The notes under the pieces are model-generated. The model was not told the origin of the DNA. It did no database searches and saw nothing but the letters and a program-made list of their open reading frames with translations. A stretch of 64,000 nt of DNA from Dokdonella sp. (lineage in GTDB: Bacteria > Pseudomonadota > Gammaproteobacteria > Xanthomonadales > Rhodanobacteraceae). Of the stretch, positions 18,886-64,000 are shown one piece after another. The translations under genes were made by a program, and so were the position numbers. How positions within the stretch are numbered: position 1 is the stretch's first letter; each line of letters begins with the position of its first letter. Location of the stretch: positions 1,793,387 through 1,857,386 of the forward strand of contig JANQAE010000001.1 in the NCBI GenBank assembly GCA_024707225.1. The letters run 5' to 3'.

Positions 18886-19077
18886 AATACGGAAGAAGCC
18901 CTCGAGGTTCTGATGACTTGCTCACAATCGCCGCGCGGCCGCACGGTAACGTCGCTTCCGTCGTAACCCGTTGCTACGCAGGACCGTTTTCCCCTGATCG
19001 GCATCGTGCGGCCCGGCCCTCCGGCCGGACGCAGCGGGCGCGGCATGCTCCCATCACGTCGAGAGGACGATCCACCC

Positions 19078-20790
19078 ATGGCATCGCGCAGTCCGTACCG
19101 TCGCGCCCTCGCAGCGCTGGCCGTCGTGTTGAGCCCGCTCGTGGCCGCTGCGCAAGGCATCACGATCGATCTGTCCTACGTCAACACGCAATCGGCGGCG
19201 TATACGCGCTTCAAGAACTACGTCGACGCCGCCGTCAACGGCAATCCCGCCTACGGCTTCAGTGCGACCGACGCGGTCTACATGCACCGCCTGACCGGCC
19301 AGCCGCAGTACTGCAACCTCGCCGTGCAGATGAGCCAGGCCCAGGTCGACGCCGCCAACAGCGCGATCGCCGGCGGCCAGCGCCCGGCCGTCGCCAGCGA
19401 CTCCTATCTGCAGGCCGGTCCGATGCTGATGGACCTGGCGATCACCTGGGACTGGTGCCGCAGCTTCGTCAGCGACGGCCAGCGCGCGCAATGGGGCGCC
19501 TACGCCGAACAGGCGGTCTGGAACATCTGGAACCCGAGCCAGGCGCAGTGGGGCGGCCGTCCGTTCGCGTGGTCCGGCTGGGGCACCAACGACCCGGCCA
19601 ACAACTATTTCTACAGTTTCCTGCAGGCCACGATGTACTGGGCGCTGGCCAGCGACAGCACGACCTGGAAGGCCTGGATCCAGAACAACAAGCTGCCGAC
19701 GCTCGAAGCCTATTTCGCGAACCTGCCCGGCGGCGGCAGCCAGGAAGGCACCGGCTACGGCCTGTCGCATCGCACCGTGTTCGCGCTGTACCGGCTCTGG
19801 CGTGACTCGACCGGCACCGACCCGGCCAATGCGAACAGCCACCTGTCCGACACGGTCGCCTACTGGACCCACGCCACGGTGCCCACGCGCGACCGCTACG
19901 CGCCGATCGGCGACCAGGCGCGCACCTCGCAGCCGGAGCTCTACGACTATCACCGCCAGCTGATGCTCGAGGCGCGCAGCAACACCGCCAATGCCGAGAT
20001 GCGCAGCCTCGCCTCGTGGTGGCTCAACGGCATCTCGGTCCAGCAGATGATCAACAGCTTCAATTACCGCCACGATCTGCTGCAGGCCGGTGCGACCACG
20101 GCGGCGCCGTCGAACCTGATCTACCACGCGACCGGCGTCGGCCAGATGTTCGCGCGGACCGGCTGGGACACCGGCGCGATGTGGATGTCGTTCGTCGCCG
20201 GCCCGTACGTGCAGAGCCACGCGCATCAGGACCAGGGCTCGTTCACGCTGTACGAGAACGGCTGGCTCGCGGTCACCGAGAACATCTGGACGTCCAGCGG
20301 CATCCAGCAGGGCACCGACGTGCACAACGTGCTGCGTTTCGTGCGCAACGGCACGACGATAGGCCAGCGCGAGCCGACGACCTCGCACATGACGGTGACG
20401 CCGACCGGCGGCAACGGCGCGTTCACCGCCAGCGCGGACCTGACGCCGGCCTACGGCGGCAATGCGGCGATCCAGTCCTGGCAGCGCAGCATCGAATTCG
20501 GAGGCCGCCGCCTGCTGGTGCAGGACAGCTATCAGGTCAGCGCCGACACGCAGGCGATCTTCCAGGTCAACGTGCCGGTGCAGCCGGTCATCAACGGCCG
20601 CAGCGTGACCGCCGGCCGGCTCACGATCAACGTGCTGCAGCCGGCCGACGCGACGATCAGCGCGATCGACTGGCGCAGCGCCGGCAGCGATTTCCGCTCC
20701 GGCTGGCGCATCGACGTGCGCGGCAGCGGCGGCAGCTACGTGGTCGAGTTCAAGACCAGCGAAGACCTGTTCAAGAACGGCTTCGACTGA
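19078..20790 (+). CDS. Secreted heparinase II/III-like polysaccharide lyase, paralogue 1, with C-terminal EDLFKNGFD tail
   Basis: Signal peptide; NNY, GGSQEGTGY, PIGD and SHAHQDQGSF motifs; GAGAGGA RBS before ATG 19078. Confidence 0.72.
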   Translation: MASRSPYRRALAALAVVLSPLVAAAQGITIDLSYVNTQSAAYTRFKNYVDAAVNGNPAYGFSATDAVYMHRLTGQPQYCNLAVQMSQAQVDAANSAIAGGQRPAVASDSYLQAGPMLMDLAITWDWCRSFVSDGQRAQWGAYAEQAVWNIWNPSQAQWGGRPFAWSGWGTNDPANNYFYSFLQATMYWALASDSTTWKAWIQNNKLPTLEAYFANLPGGGSQEGTGYGLSHRTVFALYRLWRDSTGTDPANANSHLSDTVAYWTHATVPTRDRYAPIGDQARTSQPELYDYHRQLMLEARSNTANAEMRSLASWWLNGISVQQMINSFNYRHDLLQAGATTAAPSNLIYHATGVGQMFARTGWDTGAMWMSFVAGPYVQSHAHQDQGSFTLYENGWLAVTENIWTSSGIQQGTDVHNVLRFVRNGTTIGQREPTTSHMTVTPTGGNGAFTASADLTPAYGGNAAIQSWQRSIEFGGRRLLVQDSYQVSADTQAIFQVNVPVQPVINGRSVTAGRLTINVLQPADATISAIDWRSAGSDFRSGWRIDVRGSGGSYVVEFKTSEDLFKNGFD

Positions 20791-21225: not shown

Positions 21226-22959
21226 TCAGCCGCCGCCGTCGATCTCGACACGGAACTCGCCCGATCCGGCCTCGGCGGCTCCCGTCTCGACGTCGATGCG
21301 CCAGCCGGAGCGGAACTCGCCTGCGTCGGTGCTGCGCCAGTCGTGCACGCCGAGCCGGGCCGATTCGGGTGACAGCACGCGCAGGCGCAGCGCACCGGCC
21401 CGTGCCTCGCGGCCGTCGACGACCGGCTGCTGCGGCACGTCGAGCTGGAATACCGCGCGCGTGCCGGCGGCCACCGCATAGCGGTCGACCACCTGCAGGC
21501 GGCCGTCCGCCGCGAAGCGCAGCTCGCGCGTCCAGGCCCGCACCGCGCTGCCGCCGCCGTAGGCCGGCGCCAGATCGGCGCGGACGATCAGCGCACCGTC
21601 GGGCGCATGCTCGACCTGCATCGTCGAGGTCGTGCCTTCGCGCTGCGGCAGCACCGCGCCGTCGCGCTCGAAGCGCAGCACGTTGTGCACGTCGGTGCCC
21701 TGCTGGATGCCGCTGCGCGTCCAGATGTTCTCGGTCACCGCGAGCCAGCCACCGCGGTACAGCATGAAACCGCCCTGGTCCTGATGCGCGTGGCTCTCGC
21801 TGTACGGCCCGGCCGTGAACGCGAGCCAGGTCGCGTCGCGGTTCCAGCCGGTCCGCGCGAACACGCGGCCGGTGCCGCTCGCGACGTAGTCGCGCTCGGC
21901 CGGCGCGTGGCCGCCGCTGCCGGCCGGCAGCAGGTCGTAGCGCGCATTGAAGCCGTGGGTCATGCGCTGCAGCGGAATCTTCGACAGCCACCAGCTCGCC
22001 AGATCGCGCACGGCGGCGTCGCGCGTCAGCGCACGCGCTTCGAGCATCAGCCGCCGCTGGTAGTCGTAGATCTCCGGCTGCGACACGCGCGCCTGGTCGC
22101 CGAGCGGCGCGAACTGCGTGAAGTCCGGCACCGTCGCATGCACCCAGAAGCGGATCGTGTCGTCGAGATGGCCGTTCGCGGCGGCCAGATCCTCGCCAGT
22201 CGAATCGCGCCAGAGCCGGTACAGCGCGAACAGCCGCATCTGCGCGGTGCCGTAGCCGGTGCCTTCGCGGCTGCCGCCGCCCGGCAGCGCCGCGACGTAG
22301 GCGGTCAGCGCCGGCAGCAGGCGTTCGCGCAGCCGCGCGAGCCAGGCCGCATCGTCGGCGGCCAGCGCCCAGCTCATCGTCGCCTCGAGAAAGCTGTAGT
22401 GGTAGTTGTTGCCGGGGTTGTCGGTGCCCCAGCCCGACCACGGATACGCGCGATCGCCCCAGCGCGCCGCCGGCGGATCCCAGATGTTGGCGAGCGTGCG
22501 CTCGGCATAGGCGCGCCAGCGCGCGCGCTGCGCCTCGCCGGTGAACGCCGCGCAGACCTCGTAGCCGAGCGCGAGCGCTCCGATCATCGGGCCGGCTTCG
22601 AGATACGAATCGCCGGCGACCGCCGGCCGCTCGCCGGCCGCGATCGCGGCTTCGGCGGCGGCGACCTGACGATCGATCTCGCCGACCGCGAACTCGCAGT
22701 AGTGCTGCTTCCCGCTGATGCGGTACAGATAGACCGCATCGGCCGGCGAGAAGCCGTAGCCGGGCCGGCCGGCGACCGCCGCGTCGACCCAGTCGCGAAA
22801 GCGCCTGTAGGCCGGCGAGCCGGTGTCGACGTAGCTCAGGTCCAGCTTGATCGCTGCGTTCGCCGGTGGCGGCGGCATCGCGAGCGACAGCAGCGCCGCC
22901 AGTGCGGCCGCGATCGTGCGCGCCCTGCCGCGGCTGCCGTCGCGGCTGCGCTCAGCCAT
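21226..22959 (-). CDS. Heparinase II/III-like polysaccharide lyase, paralogue 2 (no tail)
   Basis: Signal peptide; aligns end to end with paralogue 1 (NNY, GGSREGTGY, PLGD, SHAHQDQGGF); ends EFRVEIDGGG. Confidence 0.72.
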   Translation of the reverse strand: MAERSRDGSRGRARTIAAALAALLSLAMPPPPANAAIKLDLSYVDTGSPAYRRFRDWVDAAVAGRPGYGFSPADAVYLYRISGKQHYCEFAVGEIDRQVAAAEAAIAAGERPAVAGDSYLEAGPMIGALALGYEVCAAFTGEAQRARWRAYAERTLANIWDPPAARWGDRAYPWSGWGTDNPGNNYHYSFLEATMSWALAADDAAWLARLRERLLPALTAYVAALPGGGSREGTGYGTAQMRLFALYRLWRDSTGEDLAAANGHLDDTIRFWVHATVPDFTQFAPLGDQARVSQPEIYDYQRRLMLEARALTRDAAVRDLASWWLSKIPLQRMTHGFNARYDLLPAGSGGHAPAERDYVASGTGRVFARTGWNRDATWLAFTAGPYSESHAHQDQGGFMLYRGGWLAVTENIWTRSGIQQGTDVHNVLRFERDGAVLPQREGTTSTMQVEHAPDGALIVRADLAPAYGGGSAVRAWTRELRFAADGRLQVVDRYAVAAGTRAVFQLDVPQQPVVDGREARAGALRLRVLSPESARLGVHDWRSTDAGEFRSGWRIDVETGAAEAGSGEFRVEIDGGG

Positions 22960-47087: not shown

Positions 47088-50000
47088 ATGCTCGCCGCCC
47101 TCGTCCGCGCCTCGCTGGCCCATCCGCGCATCGTCGCGGCGCTGGCGCTGCTGGTCACGCTGGCCGGCGCGTTCGCGCTGGCGCGCGCACGCTTCGACGT
47201 TTTCCCGGATTTCGCGCCGCCGTTCGTGCTGGTGCAGATCGAGGCGCCGGGCCTGTCGGCGCCGCAGGTCGAGGCGCAGGTGACGCGGCCGGTCGAGTCG
47301 CTGCTGGCCGGCACCGAGAACGTCGCGACGATCCGCTCCAGTTCGGCGCAGGGCCTGGCCGCGATCCGCGTGATCTTCCATCGCGGCAGCGATCCGCATC
47401 GCCAGCGCCAGGCCGTGATCGAGCGGCTGGCCGAGGCCGGCGGCCTGCTGCCCGACGGCGTGCGCGCGCCGCAGCTCTCACCGCTGTCCTCGTCGATGGA
47501 GTACCTGCTGCACTTCGGCTACACCAGCGACACCCTCGATCCGCTCGCACTGCGCGATCTCGTGCAATGGTCGGTCCAGCCGCAGATCCTCGCGGTGCCG
47601 GGCGTCGCGCACGTGCAGCTGTTCGGCGGCCAGGCGCGCGAGCGTCGCGTCGAGATCGACCCGCTGCGCCTGGCCGCGGCCGGGCTCGGACTCGACGCGG
47701 TCGTCGAGGCGATCGCGGCGGCCACCGCGCCGGCCGGCGCCGGCTACGTCGAGACCGCGGTGCAGCGGCTGGTGGTCCAGGTCGAGCCGACCGCGACCGA
47801 TGCCGCCGCGCTGGCCGCGGCCGTCGTCGATCTCGCCGATGGCGTGCCACGCCGGCTCGGCGACGTGGCGACCGTCGTCGACGGCGCGCAGCCGCTGTTC
47901 GGCGACGCGACGATCGCCGGCAAGCCGGGCATCCTCGTCGAGACCTCCTCGCAGTACGGCGCCAACACGCTGGAGGCCACGCGCGCGCTCGAGGCGCGGC
48001 TCGACGCGCTGGCGCCGGCGCTGGCGGCGCAGGGCGTCACCTACCATCCGGCGCTGCTGCGGCCGGCCAGCTTCGTCGAGCACGCGATCGAGAAGATGCG
48101 CCGCTCGCTGGTGATCGGCGCGGCCCTGGTCGTCGCGCTGCTGCTGGTGATGCTGCGCGACTGGCGCGGCGCGCTGATCTCGTTCAGCGCGATTCCGCTG
48201 GCGCTGCTGGCGGCGGTCTGGCTGCTGTCGGCCTGGGGCTTCAGCCTCAACACGATGACGCTCGGCGGCCTGGTCGTCGCGCTCGGCGTCGTCGTCGACG
48301 ATGCGGTGATCGACGTGGAGAACATCCTGCGCCGGCGCCGCGAGGCGGCCGCCGGTGCCGACGTCGACGCCCTGTTCGCCGCGGCCTCGCTCGAGGTGCG
48401 CCGGCCGGTGTTCTACGCGACCGCCGCGGTCGCGGTCGCGTTCGTGCCGATCCTGTCGATGAGCGGCCTGCAGGGCGCGTTCTTCGGTCCGCTGTCGATC
48501 GCGTTCCTGCTCGCGGTCGGACTGTCGCTGATCGTCGCGCTGGCGGTCACGCCGGCGCTGTGCATGCTGTTCATGCGCGACCACGCGCCGGCGCCGGAGG
48601 CGCGCTTCCTCGACCGCTGCAAGACCGTGCAGCGCGGCATCGTCGCGCGCGCGCGCGCGCGCGCCCGCTGCTGCCGGCCGTGCTGCTGATCGCGACCGGC
48701 GTGGCCGGCGTCGCGCTGCTGCCGCTGTTCGGCGCGCGGCTGCTGCCGGACTTCCGCGAGACCTATCTGATCGCGCACAGCGGCCTGCGGCCCGGCGTCG
48801 CGATCGCCGAGACCGCACGCGTCGGCCGCGAGGTGTCCGCGCGCCTGCTCGAGATCGACGGGGTGCGCAGCGTCGCCCAGCAGATCGGCCGCGCCGAGAA
48901 CGGCCAGGACACCGACACGCCGAACGAGAGCGAGTTCGAGATCCGCATCGAGCCGACCGCCGCCCGCCCGCTCGAGGCGATCGAGGCCGACATCCGTGCG
49001 GTGTTCGAGCGCTATCCGAACCAGCAGGCCGAGGTCTATTCGGTGCTGGCCGAGCGCATCGGCGAGACGCTGACCGGCGAGAGCGCGCCGTTCTCGGTCG
49101 GCGTGTTCGGCAGCGATCTGGACGAGAACGACCGCGTCGCCGCGGCGATCGCCGAGGTGATCGACGATCTGCCCGATGCGGCCGGCGTGCGCCTGGTCGT
49201 GCCGCCGCGCGAGCCGCAGCTGCGCGTGCAGCTCGACGGCGAGGCCCTGGCGCTGCACGGCCTGGCCGCCGGCGAGGTGCTGCGCACGATCCAGGCCGCA
49301 TTCCACGGCACCGTCGCGGCCGAGATGACGCTGCCGGACCGCAGTCTGCCGGTGGTCGTGCGCATCGCCGGCGGCGACGGCGGACCGGACGCGCTGCGGC
49401 GCCTGCCGCTGCGCGGACGCGACGGCGCGACCGTCACGCTCGGCGAGCTCGCGTCGATCGATCTGGTCAGCGCGCGCAGCGTGCTCGACCACGAAGATGG
49501 ATTGCGCCGCCAGGTCGTCGTCGCGCGGCCCGAAGGCGGCGACCACGTCGGCTTCGCGGCGCGCGCGCGAGGCGATCGCGGCGCAGGTGACGTTGCCGCC
49601 CGGCGTCTACCTGCGCTACGGCGGCAGCGCCGAAGCGCAGCGCGCGGCCGCGCGCGAGCTGATCGTGCACTCGGGATTCGCCGCCGTCGTGATCGTGCTG
49701 CTGCTGGCGCTCGCGTTCGGGCGCGCGCGCCACGTCGCGCTGACGCTGGCCGCGCTGCCGAGCACGCTGATCGGCGGCGTCGCCGCGCTGTGGCTCAGCG
49801 GGGGCACGCTGAACCTCGGTGCGATGGTCGGCTTCGTCGCGCTGTTCGGCATGGCCGCGCGCAATACGATCCTGCTGATCTCGCACTACGACCATCTGGT
49901 GCACGCCGAGGGCGCGCCGTGGACACTGGAAACCGCCCTGCGCGGTGCGACCGAGCGCCTTACGCCGGTGCTGCTGACCGCGCTGCTGACCGCGCTGGCG

Positions 50001-50159
50001 CTGTTGCCGGTCGCGCTGCAGAGCCGCGAGGCCGGCCACGAGATCGAAGGCCCGATGGCGATCGTGCTGCTCGGCGGCCTGGTCTCCTCGACCCTGGTCA
50101 GCCTGCTGCTGATTCCGCCGCTGGCGGTGCGCTGGCTGCGCATGGCGCCGGCGCGCTGA
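47088..50159 (+). CDS. HME-type (CusA/CzcA-like) RND transporter (two apparent frameshifts near 48655 and 49560)
   Basis: FDVFPDFAPP.V.VQIEAPGL, NTMTLGGL...VVDDAVIDVENI, EAGHEIEGPMAIVLLGGL. Confidence 0.88.
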
Positions 50160-50226: not shown

Positions 50227-51881
50227 TCAGTCGAAACCTTCGGCCAGCAGCGATTCGGGCACGCCGGCCGATCCGCGCAGGTACAGCTGGGCCAGGCTGC
50301 TGATGCCCTGCACGTTGACGCGCACCAGCACACGGCCGTTGCTGCTGGCCCAGCCGTCCTCGCCGAGATAGTTCTGATCGATCAGGCCGGACGTGGTGAC
50401 CGAGGTCACCACACGGTCCTCCGGGCCGGTCGCGGTCGGCACCTTGACCAGGTCGCCCGGTCCGAGCTCGCGCACCGGCGCCGCGCCGGGGCGCAGCCGC
50501 CAGATGCCGCGCTCGTTCGGGTTGCCGACCTCGCCGAAGATCAGCACCTCGCCGCTGTCGAGCACCTGCGTGCGGTGGAACTCGCGCCACGGCCGGCCCG
50601 GCGCGGCGGCGTAGCTGCCGGTGTCGCCGACGATCGCGATCGGCTCCGGCGGCAGGCCCGGCACCAGGCGCCAGACGCCGGCGGTCGAACTGGTGCCGGC
50701 GATCGGCTTGATCGTCGTGCGCAGCAGGCCGTAGCGCCCGGCGCGGCCAGCTCGGTCGGTGCGCCGGTCGCGTTGAACACATAGCCGCTGTAGCCCGGGC
50801 CGAGGCTGCCCTCCACGTTGTACAGATAGACCGGCGCGTTCTGTCCGTCGGCGTGCAGGAAGCCGCCGTTGCTCGAGCCGTTCGGCGAGCTCACGCGCGC
50901 CCAGAAGTAGAACGCGTCGCGATGCGCCGGGCGGATCGCGCCGAACTCGCTGAACGTGTAGGAGGTGTCGTTCATCCCCGGCCCGAGGCTGCCGGTCACC
51001 GCCGCACGCGCCTGCACTTGCGGCGCGCCGCGGCACAGCGAGAAAATCCCGCGGCCGTTGGTCCCGCTTTCGCGGAACGCGGCGGCGACGTAGACCTCGC
51101 CACGGCTACCGACCACCGGCATGTCGATCGTGTAGCTGCCGCTGTCGTAGAACACCGCCGAGCCGATGCCGGGCGCATAGGCGGGTTCGTTCGATCCCTC
51201 CAGCAAGCAGGCGCGATTGCCGACCCCTCCCTGATGCAGGATCACCGCGTGCAGCGAGCCGGTCACGGTCGCATCGATCAGGACCCGCTGTCCCGGCAGT
51301 GCGCGTGCGCGCGGGTAGCCGGTGCTGGTGGTCGTGCCGAGATTCGTGAACACGACGCCGGCACCGAGGCCGGGGCCGAGCGCCCCTTCGGTATTGAGCC
51401 GCGCGATCTCGGCATTGGCCGAGCCGTTCCACATCCATACGCCGTAGGTCGCCGCATCGGCCGGCTGGGTCGGCTCGCCGGCGCGCGCGCCGAAGACGCG
51501 ATGGGCCTGGCCGCTCGAATCCTGCTTCTGGAACAGCGTGCGGAACACGTGGCCGGCCTCGCCGCCGCTGCGGCCCGGCCCGGTCGCGCCGGTGGCCATG
51601 TTCTCGGCGATCGGCGTCAACGTGCCGTTGCGCTCGGCCCACAGCGAGAACGGGCCGGCGCTGCCGGCGTTGCGCGCGAAGCCGAGGGCGCCGTTGCCAC
51701 CGCTGGCCAGCGAGGCCCATTCCAGATCGAAACCGGTCGCCGAAGGCAGCAGCGGCGGGATGGCCAGGCCCGAGTCGGTGTCGGCGGCGACGACGCGCCA
51801 GTCGGGGGCGGCCTGAGCGGCCGGTCCGCCGAGCGCGAGCGCGCAGGCGACGGCCAGGCCGGCGGGAAGGGTGCGGGACAT
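50227..51881 (-). CDS. Secreted tandem-repeat (beta-propeller-like) protein with C-terminal ESLLAEGFD tail (apparent frameshift near 50745)
   Basis: Signal peptide MSRTLPAGLAVACALALGGPAAQA; a [GA]PG-x4-6-F unit recurs about six times at roughly 60-aa spacing; C-terminal part is in ORF 50227..51036. Confidence 0.72.
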
Positions 51882-62213: not shown

Positions 62214-62633
62214 ATGAGCTTCTTCAGTGAATTCAAGACATTCGCGATGCGCGGCAACGTGATCGATCTCGCCGTCGGCGTCGTCATCGGCGGCGCGTTC
62301 GGCAAGATCGTCTCGTCCCTGGTCGATCAGGTCATCATGCCGCCGATCGGCTACCTGATCGGCGGCATCGACTTCTCGGCCTACAAGCTGGTCCTGGTGC
62401 AGGCCGGCGCCGACGGCAAGGGCGAGGTCGCGATCCAGTACGGCGCGTTCTTCAATACGATGATCCAGTTCATCATCATCGCGTTCGCGATCTTCCTGGT
62501 CATCAAGGCGATCAACCGCCTCAACCGCAAGGAAGAGGCCGCGCCAGCGGCGCCGCCGGCCGACGTCGTGCTGCTGACCGAGATCCGCGATCTGCTCAAG
62601 GCCGGCCAGCCGATCGGCAAACCGCCGCTCTGA
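62214..62633 (+). CDS. mscL: Large-conductance mechanosensitive channel
   Basis: [32 protein letters not shown]...YGAF...[10 protein letters not shown]. Confidence 0.97.
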
Positions 62634-62759: not shown

Positions 62760-64000
62760 TCAATCGAAACCGTTCGCGAAAATCGCTTCGGCGCGCGCCG
62801 GGCCGCCGATGAACAGGATCGAGCCGGTGCTGGCCGGGCGGTAGCTGCCGAAGCCGCCGGCCGCGAATGCGAGCCTCCAGCGGTTGGCGCTCTGCGCGAT
62901 CACGACCGCGCCCGCGTCGTGCCAGCCGATCGTCGCCGCGTCACCGGGCGTCGACGGTCCGTACAGCCGCCACGACCAGCCGCCGCCGAACGTGACGCCG
63001 TGATAGGTCACCTCGATCGTCGCGCCCGGGCAGCGCGGCGCCTCGAAGCGCAGCAGGCCGAGCGGATGCGCGTGACCGGCGTCGGTCGGCAGCGCGGCGG
63101 CGTCGACCGGCGCGACGTCGACCAGCTGCGGGCAGTCGCCGTCGATCAGCTTGACGGTGAACCAGCCGCCATCGGCGCCGAGCGGCGCCGGTGCCGATGC
63201 TTCGCCTTGCGGCCGCCAGGCCGCCATCGCCGCACCCGCTGCGGTCGCGCCGACGGTGGCCTGCAGCGCGTCGCGAATGCCGTCGCCGTCGCTGTCGCCG
63301 CCGTTCGGACCGGCGTCCTCGACCGCGTCGGGAATGCCGTCGCCGTCGGCGTCCGGCAGCTGCTCGAGCGTGAATACGCCGCCGCCGGTGCCGGCGTGCA
63401 GGATCGCCGGATCGGCCGGATCGAGCGCCAGCGCGGTCGCCGAGGAGGCCGGCAGGCCGAGGCTGATCGAGCGCCAGCTCGCACCGCCGTCGACGCTCTT
63501 GAACACGCCGCCCGGATTGGCCGCGTCCAGGCCGCCGCTGGCTGCGTACAGCGTGCCCGGCGTCGCCGCGTCGACCAATAGCGCGCGCGTATCCGGCGCG
63601 GTGATGCCGGCATTGGCGAGCGCCCAATTCGCGCCGCCGTCGATGGTCTTGTAGAGACTGCCCGGGCCGGTCCAGTTGTTGGTGTCGATCGTGCTGGCCC
63701 ATAGCGTCTGCGGGTTGGCCGGGTCGATCGCCAGCGCGAGCACGTCGAGCGCGGCATCGGCCGAGCCCGGATAGCGCGGCAGACCGTGGCTGCGGTGCAC
63801 CCAGCTGGCGCCGCCGTCGGTGCTGCGGAACACGCCGCTGGCGATCTGCGGCGCGTCGTAGCTGCCGCTGACCGGATCGTAGTGATTGTTCTGCGCGAAC
63901 GTGCCGACGTAGAGCGTGGCGGGGTTGGCCGGATCGATCACCAGCGGCACGGCGCCGCTGATCGTGCTGTAGCTGCTGTCCGGCCCCGCAACGTCGTGCG
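62760..64000 (-). CDS. Secreted-type BNR/Asp-box propeller protein with DxDGDG Ca-binding repeats, a choice-of-anchor-U-like domain and an EAIFANGFD tail (5' end outside window)
   Basis: RSTDGGASW, KTIDGGANW and KSVDGGASW Asp-boxes; DADGDGIPD...DSDGDGIRDALQ; C-terminal beta domain. Confidence 0.8.
   Translation of the reverse strand, partial: HDVAGPDSSYSTISGAVPLVIDPANPATLYVGTFAQNNHYDPVSGSYDAPQIASGVFRSTDGGASWVHRSHGLPRYPGSADAALDVLALAIDPANPQTLWASTIDTNNWTGPGSLYKTIDGGANWALANAGITAPDTRALLVDAATPGTLYAASGGLDAANPGGVFKSVDGGASWRSISLGLPASSATALALDPADPAILHAGTGGGVFTLEQLPDADGDGIPDAVEDAGPNGGDSDGDGIRDALQATVGATAAGAAMAAWRPQGEASAPAPLGADGGWFTVKLIDGDCPQLVDVAPVDAAALPTDAGHAHPLGLLRFEAPRCPGATIEVTYHGVTFGGGWSWRLYGPSTPGDAATIGWHDAGAVVIAQSANRWRLAFAAGGFGSYRPASTGSILFIGGPARAEAIFANGFD

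What the first reader, a model, noticed from the sequence alone, without database searches (positions are those of the whole stretch)
20761..20790. Shared 9-residue C-terminal tail on three unrelated exported proteins: candidate sorting signal
Seen: three non-homologous proteins end identically: EDLFKNGFD (20761-20790), ESLLAEGFD (50227-50256) and EAIFANGFD (62760-62789). Consensus is E-x-[LI]-[FL]-x-[NE]-G-F-D-COOH, with E at -9 in all three. Two have clear Sec signal peptides; the third is 5'-truncated. Established: beta-propeller and choice-of-anchor domains are usually followed by a sorting signal (PEP-CTERM, GlyGly-CTERM, T9SS CTD), and those CTERM tags need a TM helix plus basic tail. 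This tail has neither and ends in an acidic residue. Inference: it is a TM-less export or surface-docking tag, possibly read by T2SS or an outer-membrane receptor. I recall similar tails in this lineage but know of no established mechanism.
Basis: partly seen in the sequence, partly recalled or inferred. Interest (0 to 1): 0.85.

Follow-up and report, generated by a model that had tools for sequence, protein, structure and literature searches.

The report
Short shared tail on exported proteins
About 80 unrelated exported proteins of this Dokdonella bacterium carry the same nine-residue, floppy peptide (D/E-x-I/L-F-x-D/N-G-F-D/E), nearly always at their very end; it is in no catalogue, changes in step across a whole genus, and tracks a second type II secretion system, so it looks like an undescribed address tag whose reader is still unknown.

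Summary
All three window proteins end in the motif and share nothing else. Genome-wide, the strict 9-mer [DE]-x-[ILV]-F-x-[DNS]-G-F-[DE] occurs 82 times: 70 within 18 residues of a stop, 3 just after a signal peptide, 9 at domain borders. There is never more than one per protein, and shuffles give 0-1 at C-termini. Carriers are enriched for signal peptides and belong to many unrelated families. Orthologues keep the tail while the linker before it varies. AlphaFold leaves it unstructured in two proteins. No Pfam or NCBIfam model, and none of the papers found, describes it.

Two results are new here. One genus uses an Arg "dialect" (F-x-D-R-F-E) in 14-92 proteins per genome, a concerted shift that argues for one common reader. 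Across 151 genomes of the order, tails track a second T2SS with a PDZ-bearing GspC (OR 38). One family, however, keeps 10-27 tails without that system.

My best reading is a trans-read address tag for secreted or surface proteins, probably coupled to type II secretion. One window gene is frameshifted only in this assembly.

The parts
19075..20790 (+). Gene 1: exported heparinase II/III-like polysaccharide lyase (571 aa) carrying the tail
   Evidence: ORF and signal peptide. Pfam PF07940. 120 homologues at 57-97% identity, 86 with a strict tail. AlphaFold mean pLDDT 89.
20761..20787 (+). Tail 1: EDLFKNGFD (stop codon at 20788-20790)
   Evidence: Residues 565-571 have pLDDT <50 and no secondary structure. 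In orthologues the linker between the last strand (YVVEL) and the tail varies from 2 to 12 residues.
21226..22959 (-). Adjacent paralogous lyase with a signal peptide but NO tail (ends FRVEIDGGG): a natural tail-plus/tail-minus pair
   Evidence: About 17 of the 120 homologues belong to this tail-less subfamily. The orthologue in tail-negative genome G439 also ends without a tail.
50227..51881 (-). Gene 2: exported protein of unknown fold (551 aa once the frames are joined), carrying a degenerate tail; frameshifted in this assembly
   Evidence: Frames. Read-through ORF. Homologues at 29-94% identity, all but one partial record being single ~550-aa ORFs; 12 of the 13 read end in tail variants and one in LFAHAFEP.
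50230..50256 (-). Tail 2: ESLLAEGFD (degenerate: L in place of F, E in place of D/N/S)
50741..50741 (.). Site of the 1-nt difference: four public assemblies have an extra C behind this base, which restores a single frame
   Evidence: table 4 (X1, X3, X4, X5, all contigs)..
62760..63998 (-). Gene 3 (5' end outside the window; 945 aa in the genome): exported BNR/sortilin-type propeller with TSP3 repeats and a C-terminal beta domain, carrying the tail
   Evidence: Pfam, all three hits below the gathering cut-offs; precomputed Pfam PF02012/PF15902 on homologues. About 100 full-length homologues, 69 of 120 hits with a G-type tail and many more with K/R/T variants.
62763..62789 (-). Tail 3: EAIFANGFD
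   Evidence: In the AlphaFold model the last strand ends at residue 403, the tail (404-412) is coil, and 409-412 have pLDDT <50.

Best explanation
The peptide [DE]-x-[ILV]-F-x-[DNS]-G-F-[DE] is a free-standing short linear motif. It is joined by a variable linker to about 80 unrelated, Sec-exported, mostly non-lipoprotein enzymes and adhesins of this Dokdonella. It stays flexible and exposed, and I propose that one common envelope component reads it in trans as an address tag. The tag would mark proteins destined to leave the periplasm, either secreted or kept on the cell surface. The most likely route is type II secretion, in particular the second T2SS ('T2SS-A': a gspC-D-E locus with a PDZ-bearing GspC, other genes scattered), with which large tail repertoires co-occur.

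Shown: the motif, its position bias, its export context, its conservation, its lack of predicted structure, the genus-wide Gly-to-Arg shift, and the co-distribution with T2SS-A.

For: 1. Recurrence and position. There are 82 strict hits: 70 C-terminal, 3 directly after a signal peptide, 9 at domain borders. No protein has more than one. Shuffles give 0-1 at C-termini.
2. Export context. A crude signal-peptide test gives 37/64 for tail proteins against 500/3336 for others (OR 7.8, p=9e-15), and many of the 'misses' are visibly signal peptides. Only 2 of 64 carry a lipobox. Carrier families are typical exoproteins: S8 subtilase, metalloprotease with FTP/PepSY propeptide domains, CotH+LTD, GSDH+PKD, FG-GAP, DUF11/fn3, lyase and BNR.
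3. Selection on the tag itself. The tail is kept in 86 of 120 lyase homologues and in about 100 BNR homologues down to 41% identity, while the linker varies. A tail-plus and a tail-minus paralogue sit side by side.
4. It is not part of a fold. AlphaFold gives coil with low pLDDT for the tail in two unrelated proteins. Internal and N-terminal copies are followed by Pro-rich linkers, and DUF7933 starts 16 residues after the motif.
5. Concerted dialect. Genus g7 has 14-92 F-x-D-R-F-E tails per genome (control 0-2) and almost no G-form. Dozens of unrelated proteins changing the same position together points to a shared reader.
6. Phylogenetic profile. The motif is at background in about 400 other Gammaproteobacteria. 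Within the order (151 genomes), comparing T2SS-A GspD orthologues with tails gives 87/14/7/43 (OR 38, p=3e-18) and, by genus, 31/3/5/22. After adding the Arg dialect, 9 of the 14 'A without tails' genomes, all g7, turn positive for the R-form (14-92 hits; the two f6 genomes also gain 8-9 variant hits).
7. Fine contrasts. G506 (A present, 33 tails) and G490 (A absent, 1 tail) belong to the same genus. G542 is the only f2 genome with A and the only one with tails (65).
8. GspC-A carries T2SSC and PDZ domains, whereas the Xps-like system's GspC has no PDZ. A GspC PDZ domain is known to be needed for only a subset of cargo (PMC12369372).
9. In tail-negative relatives, the genes for five tail proteins are absent altogether.
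Against: - Family f8 (19 genomes) has only the Xps-like T2SS (checked in G025; no GspD-A hit). It still keeps 10-27 genuine C-terminal tails, including one orthologue family conserved in three genera. The tail therefore works without T2SS-A.
- Co-loss of tails and T2SS-A could reflect lifestyle or secretome size rather than direct coupling. The statistics are not phylogenetically corrected.
- No g7-specific compensatory change was found in GspC, GspD or GspE. Counts were 0/27, 2/171 (the conservative changes T62A and I66M) and 0/239.
- The GspC PDZ is present both in G-form and in Arg-dialect genera.
- Tail genes are not linked to T2SS loci.
- Trailing residues (0-18) and N-terminal copies do not fit a canonical carboxylate-anchored PDZ ligand.
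- No localisation, cleavage or binding data exist.
Confidence: 0.45

Rival explanations
1. Post-export docking tag that does not depend on which secretion system is used. After crossing the outer membrane by any route, the exposed peptide binds a surface receptor (an outer-membrane protein, LPS or exopolysaccharide, or vesicles) and keeps the enzyme on the cell. T2SS-A only correlates with tails because it exports most of these proteins.
For: - f8 keeps conserved tails without T2SS-A.
- The motif works at the N-terminus, between domains and at the C-terminus. That fits a peptide ligand bound by strand addition better than a signal tied to one end.
- The genus-wide Gly-to-Arg shift fits any single receptor.
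- The carriers are degradative enzymes and adhesins, for which cell retention is useful.
- One BNR homologue carries an IPTL-CTERM-like anchor (VPTLS, then a TM helix, then RKATA) at the same position (P0184).
Against: No candidate receptor was found. There is no evidence that these proteins are cell-bound. Genomes with large repertoires almost always have T2SS-A, which this model explains only indirectly.
Confidence: 0.25
2. Processing or modification site. The motif is recognised by an extracytoplasmic protease or modifying enzyme. The enzyme would cut at the linker, removing the tag, freeing domains or trimming pro-pieces, or it would modify the D/N-G position.
For: - The motif sits at linkers and domain borders and just after signal peptides.
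- The trailing residues are not conserved.
- Known CTERM tags are removed after use (own knowledge).
- D-G and N-G are chemically labile pairs (own knowledge).
Against: About a third of tails end exactly at GF[DE], so there is nothing downstream to release. The Arg dialect removes the D/N-G pair while the rest of the motif is kept. No dedicated enzyme gene lies next to tail genes; the only enriched neighbours are regulators.
Confidence: 0.1
3. The motif has no trans reader. It is an inherited linker or first-strand remnant of a jelly-roll (LamG-like) module, spread by domain shuffling and kept for local folding, solubility or protease resistance.
For:
- Several tails follow an 'IDDIRL'-type last strand.
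- Internal copies precede 130-540-residue C-terminal regions, several of them 160-205 residues long.
Against: - AlphaFold does not pack the tail in two proteins.
- The motif is followed by Pro-rich linkers, not by the body of a domain.
- The preceding folds are unrelated.
- F/F/acid is strongly conserved across orthologues although the tail makes no contacts.
- A whole genus switched Gly to Arg in all of its tails, which independent local roles would not produce.
Confidence: 0.07
4. Chance, or a composition artefact of a 70% G+C genome.
For: None beyond the high G+C content.
Against: Shuffles give 0-1 against 66 observed. Reverse-pattern controls give 0-3 against 44-163. A relative whose matched codons are almost all A/T-rich (G027) has 76, as do the 43-44% G+C f10 genomes G437 and G546, so selection acts at protein level.
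Confidence: 0.01

Closest known systems
Tripartite C-terminal sorting signals and their enzymes (PEP-CTERM/exosortase, GlyGly-CTERM/rhombosortase, IPTL-CTERM, MYXO-CTERM/myxosortase, LPXTG/sortase)
   Same: A short signature motif is appended to many unrelated exported proteins in one genome. It occurs once per protein, has a patchy lineage distribution, and sits where homologues elsewhere carry such signals (P0184). GlyGly-CTERM proteins such as VesB are also T2SS cargo (PMC13393428 abstract).
   Different: There is no transmembrane helix and no basic cluster. Only 0-5 residues usually follow the motif, and the end is acidic. The motif also occurs at the N-terminus and between domains. No sorting enzyme is known. 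A mechanism based on a membrane-embedded protease is therefore implausible.
GspC-PDZ-dependent cargo selection in type II secretion (EpsC PDZ and VesB in Vibrio cholerae, PMC12369372; OutC PDZ in Dickeya, own knowledge)
   Same: [quoted passage not shown] Here tails co-occur with the T2SS whose GspC has a PDZ.
   Different: In VesB the PDZ-dependent information lies in a folded Ig domain, not in a linear peptide. No linear T2SS signal is known. Here the link is only correlative, and it is broken by family f8.
T9SS C-terminal domain (type A, TIGR04183/PF18962) of Bacteroidota
   Same: A C-terminal tag on dozens of unrelated secreted or surface enzymes.
   Different: The T9SS CTD is a folded beta-sandwich of 70-100 residues, recognised by a dedicated translocon and removed by PorU (own knowledge). 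The tail here is 9 residues long, unstructured, and found in Gammaproteobacteria without a T9SS.
TonB box / TolB box type short strand-addition motifs (own knowledge)
   Same: A short peptide, tolerant of position, flexible, and able to be bound by strand addition to a periplasmic domain.
   Different: Those motifs sit on outer-membrane receptors and colicins, and their sequences are different. This is offered only as a mechanistic analogy.

Membership tests
Tripartite CTERM sorting signals (PEP-CTERM, GlyGly-CTERM, IPTL-CTERM, MYXO-CTERM, LPXTG) | The signature motif is followed by a hydrophobic transmembrane helix | tested here: not met
   25 of 80 tails end at the motif, and most of the rest have 1-5 trailing residues.
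Tripartite CTERM sorting signals (PEP-CTERM, GlyGly-CTERM, IPTL-CTERM, MYXO-CTERM, LPXTG) | A cluster of basic residues at the extreme C-terminus | tested here: not met
   The last motif residue is D (56%) or E (44%), and the trailing residues are mostly P, A or G.
Tripartite CTERM sorting signals (PEP-CTERM, GlyGly-CTERM, IPTL-CTERM, MYXO-CTERM, LPXTG) | Match to a curated sorting-domain model | tested here: not met
   NCBIfam release 20 gave no family at E<=1 for six tail peptides of 25-30 residues and none covering the tail in the window proteins and fragments scanned alongside them.
Tripartite CTERM sorting signals (PEP-CTERM, GlyGly-CTERM, IPTL-CTERM, MYXO-CTERM, LPXTG) | A co-occurring dedicated sorting enzyme (sortase, exosortase, rhombosortase or myxosortase) | not tested
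   No search for these enzymes was run. The only family enriched next to tail genes is a regulator family.
T9SS C-terminal domain | A folded C-terminal beta-sandwich of 70-100 residues matching TIGR04183/PF18962 | tested here: not met
   The tag is 9 residues long and coil in two AlphaFold models. No Pfam or NCBIfam hit was found.
T1SS C-terminal secretion signal | Substrates lack an N-terminal Sec signal peptide | tested here: not met
   Tail proteins are strongly enriched for signal peptides.
Outer-membrane protein beta-signal | A terminal aromatic residue (usually Phe) as the last residue of a beta-barrel | tested here: not met
   The motif's last residue is D or E and is followed by the stop or mostly by P, A or G. 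The two modelled carriers show a helical domain plus beta-sandwich, and a propeller plus beta domain.
Canonical PDZ C-terminal ligand | A free carboxylate at a fixed distance from the motif, with a hydrophobic last residue | tested here: not met
   There are 0-18 variable trailing residues, and N-terminal and internal copies exist.
T2SS cargo of the PDZ-GspC system (T2SS-A) | Tails occur only where the system is present | tested here: inconclusive
   The association is strong (OR 38; g7 resolved). Family f8, however, keeps 10-27 tails without the system.
T2SS cargo of the PDZ-GspC system (T2SS-A) | Secretion depends on the system | not testable with these tools
   This needs gspD-A, gspC-A and PDZ-deletion mutants with cell fractionation.
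First strand of a LamG/jelly-roll domain (structural element) | The motif is continuous with, and packed in, a following or preceding jelly-roll domain | tested here: not met
   For C-terminal copies nothing follows the motif. AlphaFold gives coil. Internal copies are followed by P-rich linkers, and DUF7933 starts 16 residues later.

The most novel reading that the evidence does not exclude
The tail is the first linear, portable cargo tag of a type II secretion pathway, or of a surface-display step directly coupled to it. The long-standing question of how T2SS cargo is chosen would then become testable with peptides and reporter fusions.
Probability: 0.3. Interest if true: 0.95.

Novelty: new variant of a known kind. 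Interest (0 to 1): 0.8.

Why it matters
How folded proteins are chosen for type II secretion, or for retention on the surface of diderm bacteria, is still unsolved, and no linear signal is known. Here a nine-residue tag marks an estimated 2-3% of a genome's proteins (a rough figure, not computed here), is under strong selection, and shifts in step across a genus. It also follows a particular T2SS. That makes it a tractable entry point using peptide pull-downs, reporter fusions and dialect swaps. It would improve annotation of exoproteomes in Dokdonella-type bacteria, which are common in soil and wastewater. It could also serve as a small secretion or display tag. Even if the T2SS link fails, a trans-read short linear motif in the bacterial envelope would be unusual.

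Tried and rejected
- Catalogues and literature. Pfam and NCBIfam scans of tails and whole proteins found no model for the tail. Full-text searches for the motif letters, for ultrashort sorting signals, and for Lysobacter/Xanthomonadales T2SS motifs found nothing relevant.
Tail genes are spread over all four contigs. The only enriched neighbour family is Ser/Thr-kinase-TPR and winged-helix-TPR regulators, which are not readers.
- Linkage to the gspCDE-A locus. Only 1 of 20 genomes has tail genes beside it.
- Number of T2SS systems as the predictor. This was rejected, because f2 genomes with Xps plus Xcs-like secretins have no tails.
- 'g7 has T2SS-A but no tails'. This was rejected once the Arg dialect was found.
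- Loss or change of the GspC PDZ in g7. Not seen.
- g7-specific compensatory substitutions in GspC, GspD or GspE. None convincing.
- Other dialects hiding in the 'negative' lineages. None: the any-residue exact-end pattern gave 0-1.
- The jelly-roll first-strand idea. Not supported in this genome.
It was rerun at 2922 aa.
Full report
**1. What is in the window**

Three ORFs end in the reported peptides at exactly the stated coordinates.

- Gene 1 (19075-20790, +) is a signal-peptide-bearing heparinase II/III-like lyase (Pfam PF07940).
- Gene 3 (62760-63998, -, 5' end cut by the window) is the C-terminal part of a 945-aa exported BNR/sortilin-type propeller with TSP3 repeats. The Pfam hits on the fragment itself are all below the gathering cut-offs; domains precomputed on its homologues support the assignment.
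- Gene 2 (50227-51881, -) matches no family.

Pairwise BLASTP finds nothing shared except the tail itself.

In this assembly gene 2 is split between two frames. Contigs from four independent public runs all carry one more C behind 50741. With that base the gene is a single 551-aa ORF with signal peptide and tail, and its full-length homologues are single ORFs. The same runs differ from the window by small indels in the neighbouring CzcA-like gene. This assembly therefore probably carries indel errors.

**2. The motif is genome-wide and position-specific**

The window lies in a 4.37-Mb, 70% G+C genome. The closest named relative is Dokdonella koreensis, with 87% identity for the lyase.

The strict 9-mer [DE]-x-[ILV]-F-x-[DNS]-G-F-[DE] occurs 82 times in six-frame ORFs:

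| Position | Count |
|---|---|
| Within 18 residues of a stop | 70 (19 exactly at the end) |
| Directly after a signal peptide | 3 |
| Internal, at domain borders of large secreted proteins | 9 |

No ORF has two copies. With a looser pattern, 66 hits fall in C-terminal windows of 3400 gene-like ORFs, against 0-1 in shuffles (p=4e-57). The acidic residue at position -2 was not searched for, yet it is D or E in 89% of tails. After the motif comes a stop (31%) or mostly P, A or G.

**3. Who carries it**

Tail proteins are enriched for signal peptides. A deliberately crude predictor gives 37/64 against 500/3336 (OR 7.8, p=9e-15), and many of its misses are obvious signal peptides by eye. Only 2 of 64 have a lipobox.

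Ten proteins scanned with Pfam gave CotH+LTD, DUF11/fn3/He_PIG, GSDH+PKD, a metalloprotease with FTP/PepSY propeptide domains, FG-GAP repeats, S8+PA+fn3_6, or no family at all. The carriers are thus unrelated and typical of exoproteins. The refutation criterion 'equally common on cytoplasmic proteins' is not met.

**4. It is a tag, not part of a fold**

- In 120 lyase homologues (57-97% identity), 86 keep a strict tail. The linker between the last strand (YVVEL) and the tail ranges from 2 to 12 residues. A tail-less subfamily also exists.
- One member of that tail-less subfamily (21226-22959) lies next to gene 1, giving a natural plus/minus pair.
- In the BNR family the tail is kept down to about 41% identity, with variants such as IFNDKFE, IFSDRFE and IFKDGFQ.
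- Gene 2's odd ESLLAEGFD descends from DRLF-x-x-x-F-D-type tails.
- AlphaFold2 with alignments gave confident models (mean pLDDT 89.2 and 88.8). In both the tail is coil; pLDDT is below 50 across residues 565-571 of the lyase and at the last four residues (409-412) of the propeller protein, with the 401-410 block averaging 68.
- Internal and N-terminal copies are followed by Pro-rich linkers (GFDPPRP, GFEPPSI). One downstream domain (DUF7933) starts 16 residues after the motif.

The criterion 'a structural strand of a shared domain' is therefore not met.

**5. Distribution**

A DNA pattern for F-x-x-G-F-[DE]-stop gave 25 hits in this genome against 0 for the reversed control. It gave 7-71 hits in all 18 congeners. 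It gave 52 in G027, a relative whose matched codons are almost all A/T-rich; other members of that family (G437, G546) are 43-44% G+C, so selection acts on the protein. About 400 Gammaproteobacteria outside the order are at background.

A more specific pattern (hydrophobic-F-x-[DN]-G-F-[DE], controls 0-3) was run over 151 genomes of the order and gave a rich presence/absence matrix:

| Lineage | Motif count per genome |
|---|---|
| Dokdonella (g1) | 44-81 |
| Other f1 genera | g320 33; g323 163; g324 one genome 33 (G506), one 1 (G490); the other nine genera 0-4 |
| Family f2 | 0-4, except one genome (G542) with 65 |
| Family f8 | 0-23 |
| Families f3, f4, f5, f9, f12 and most of f10 | positive |

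**6. A genus-wide dialect**

Genus g7 looked tail-less (0-3 hits). A 415-kb sample of one of its genomes, however, showed a protein ending IIFDDRFES.

A pattern allowing K/R/S/N/H/Q in place of Gly gave 14-92 hits per g7 genome (controls 0-2) and background in the truly negative lineages. Nearly all g7 hits read GAY-CGN-TTC-GA, that is F-x-D-R-F-E. In 30 loci I read, 25 of 31 copies were C-terminal, and others lay just after a signal peptide. Codon choices differ between copies, so this is not recent copying.

Dozens of unrelated proteins in one genus thus share a Gly-to-Arg change at the same tag position. The simplest explanation is a single reader whose specificity changed. Minor S-forms occur in other families. 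The negative lineages have no form at all with any residue at that position.

**7. Link to a second T2SS**

This genome has two T2SS.

- Locus B (C2:105554-117463) has the Xps-like order E-F-G-H-I-J-K-L-M-C/N-D. It has a lipoprotein secretin and a GspC-like protein without a PDZ domain.
- System A has gspC-D-E together (C2:333446-338071). Its gspG-K (C4:108040-111046) and gspF (C4:437800-439245) lie elsewhere. Its GspC carries T2SSC plus PDZ domains.

Orthologues of GspD-A (44-91% identity; the B-type is only 25-29% identical) were mapped on the same 151 genomes.

| | Tails >=10 | Tails <10 |
|---|---|---|
| GspD-A present | 87 | 14 |
| GspD-A absent | 7 | 43 |

This gives OR 38 (p=3e-18). By genus the counts are 31/3/5/22. 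Nine of the fourteen 'A present, few tails' genomes are g7, and the dialect result resolves them.

The sharpest contrasts are two. G506 and G490 belong to one genus, and one has both A and tails while the other has neither. G542 is the only f2 genome with A and also the only one with tails.

Simply counting T2SS systems does not predict tails, because f2 genomes with two secretins of other types have none. In tail-negative f1 genomes the genes for five tail proteins are absent. The exception is one lyase orthologue, which ends without a tail.

**8. Limits of the T2SS link**

- Family f8 has only the B-type system: no GspD-A hit in any f8 genome listed or absent from its match list, and the B-type locus was read directly in G025. 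It still keeps 10-27 true C-terminal tails. These include an orthologue family (ETWDCVR...LF-x-DGFE) conserved in three genera and in this genome. The tag must therefore function without T2SS-A.
- Genome G556 (43 tails, no GspD-A hit) is only 90% complete.
- The PDZ domain of GspC-A is present in both dialect groups.
- A scan for g7-fixed changes at conserved columns found none in GspC (0/27) or GspE (0/239). In the GspD N0 domain it found only T62A and I66M.
- The statistics ignore shared ancestry. Only three or four independent co-transitions are evident.

**9. Interpretation**

The data fit a short linear motif read in trans by one envelope component. It would mark proteins that leave the periplasm. 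I give this reading 0.45, with type II secretion as the most likely route and T2SS-A as the main but not the only one.

A surface-docking tag independent of the export route explains f8 and the positional freedom equally well, and I give it 0.25. A processing or modification site (0.1) and a reader-less linker or strand remnant (0.07) fit less well.

A canonical PDZ ligand is unlikely, because the distance from the motif to the carboxyl end varies and N-terminal copies exist. PDZ-dependent selection of a cargo subset has precedent, but there the information lies in a folded domain (PMC12369372).

**10. Novelty**

No Pfam or NCBIfam model and no paper in the searchable library describes the motif. 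It fails the defining features of tripartite CTERM signals, the T9SS CTD, T1SS signals and the OMP beta-signal.

Earlier notes from this scan reported the same tail in other genomes, together with a T2SS correlation. I treated these as leads. I re-derived the correlation independently, found its exceptions, and added the dialect result.

Noticed in passing
window 50741; window 48653, 48658, 49558: This assembly differs from 3-4 independent public assemblies by small indels. These break gene 2 and split a CzcA-like RND pump gene (about 47088-50159) over three frames. They are probably assembly errors rather than real pseudogenes.
   Followed up: partly
genome C2:114956-116832 (outside the window): gspE of the Xps-like T2SS-B also reads in two frames (the N-terminal 241 aa are in one frame, the rest in another). 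This may be another indel error, or a real inactivation of system B.
   Followed up: no
genome-wide (e.g. C2:759122-762480, C2:776621-778204, C4:426754-429279): A family of 55 paralogous regulators (Ser/Thr kinase-TPR paired with ECF sigma factors, and winged-helix-TPR) is enriched next to tail genes. 20 of 55 lie within two genes of a tail gene, against 214 of 2314 for all genes (OR 6.1, p=2e-8). Many tail genes may therefore have their own dedicated regulator.
   Followed up: partly
genome C2:331830-333523 and C2:338408-340211 (flanks of gspCDE-A): Both flanks of the gspC-D-E locus encode exported repeat or beta-helix-type proteins ending in degenerate tail-like peptides (..DIIFRYGHE, ..EFIFRDGFGG). 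This adjacency is not conserved in 19 other genomes.
   Followed up: partly
genome C2:103344-104813: A 486-aa exported protein (N-terminus ..VDLNPDGLGQVLLYPYYT) lies next to the lipoprotein secretin of T2SS-B and has no Pfam family. It may be a cargo or accessory protein of that system.
   Followed up: no
loci L001-L003 (g7 gspC-A) versus L004-L020: GspC-A of the Arg-dialect genus has a short, partly acidic C-terminal extension after the PDZ domain (..PDLEDILQSLE). Most G-dialect lineages lack it, although g333 has a short extension too. Its meaning is unclear.
   Followed up: no
window 62214-62633 (+): An ordinary mscL (large-conductance mechanosensitive channel) gene lies just downstream of gene 3.
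   Followed up: no
run X11: A metatranscriptome of a mixed culture holds 76% of the sampled words of window 50300-51300, so gene 2 appears to be transcribed in that community.
   Followed up: no
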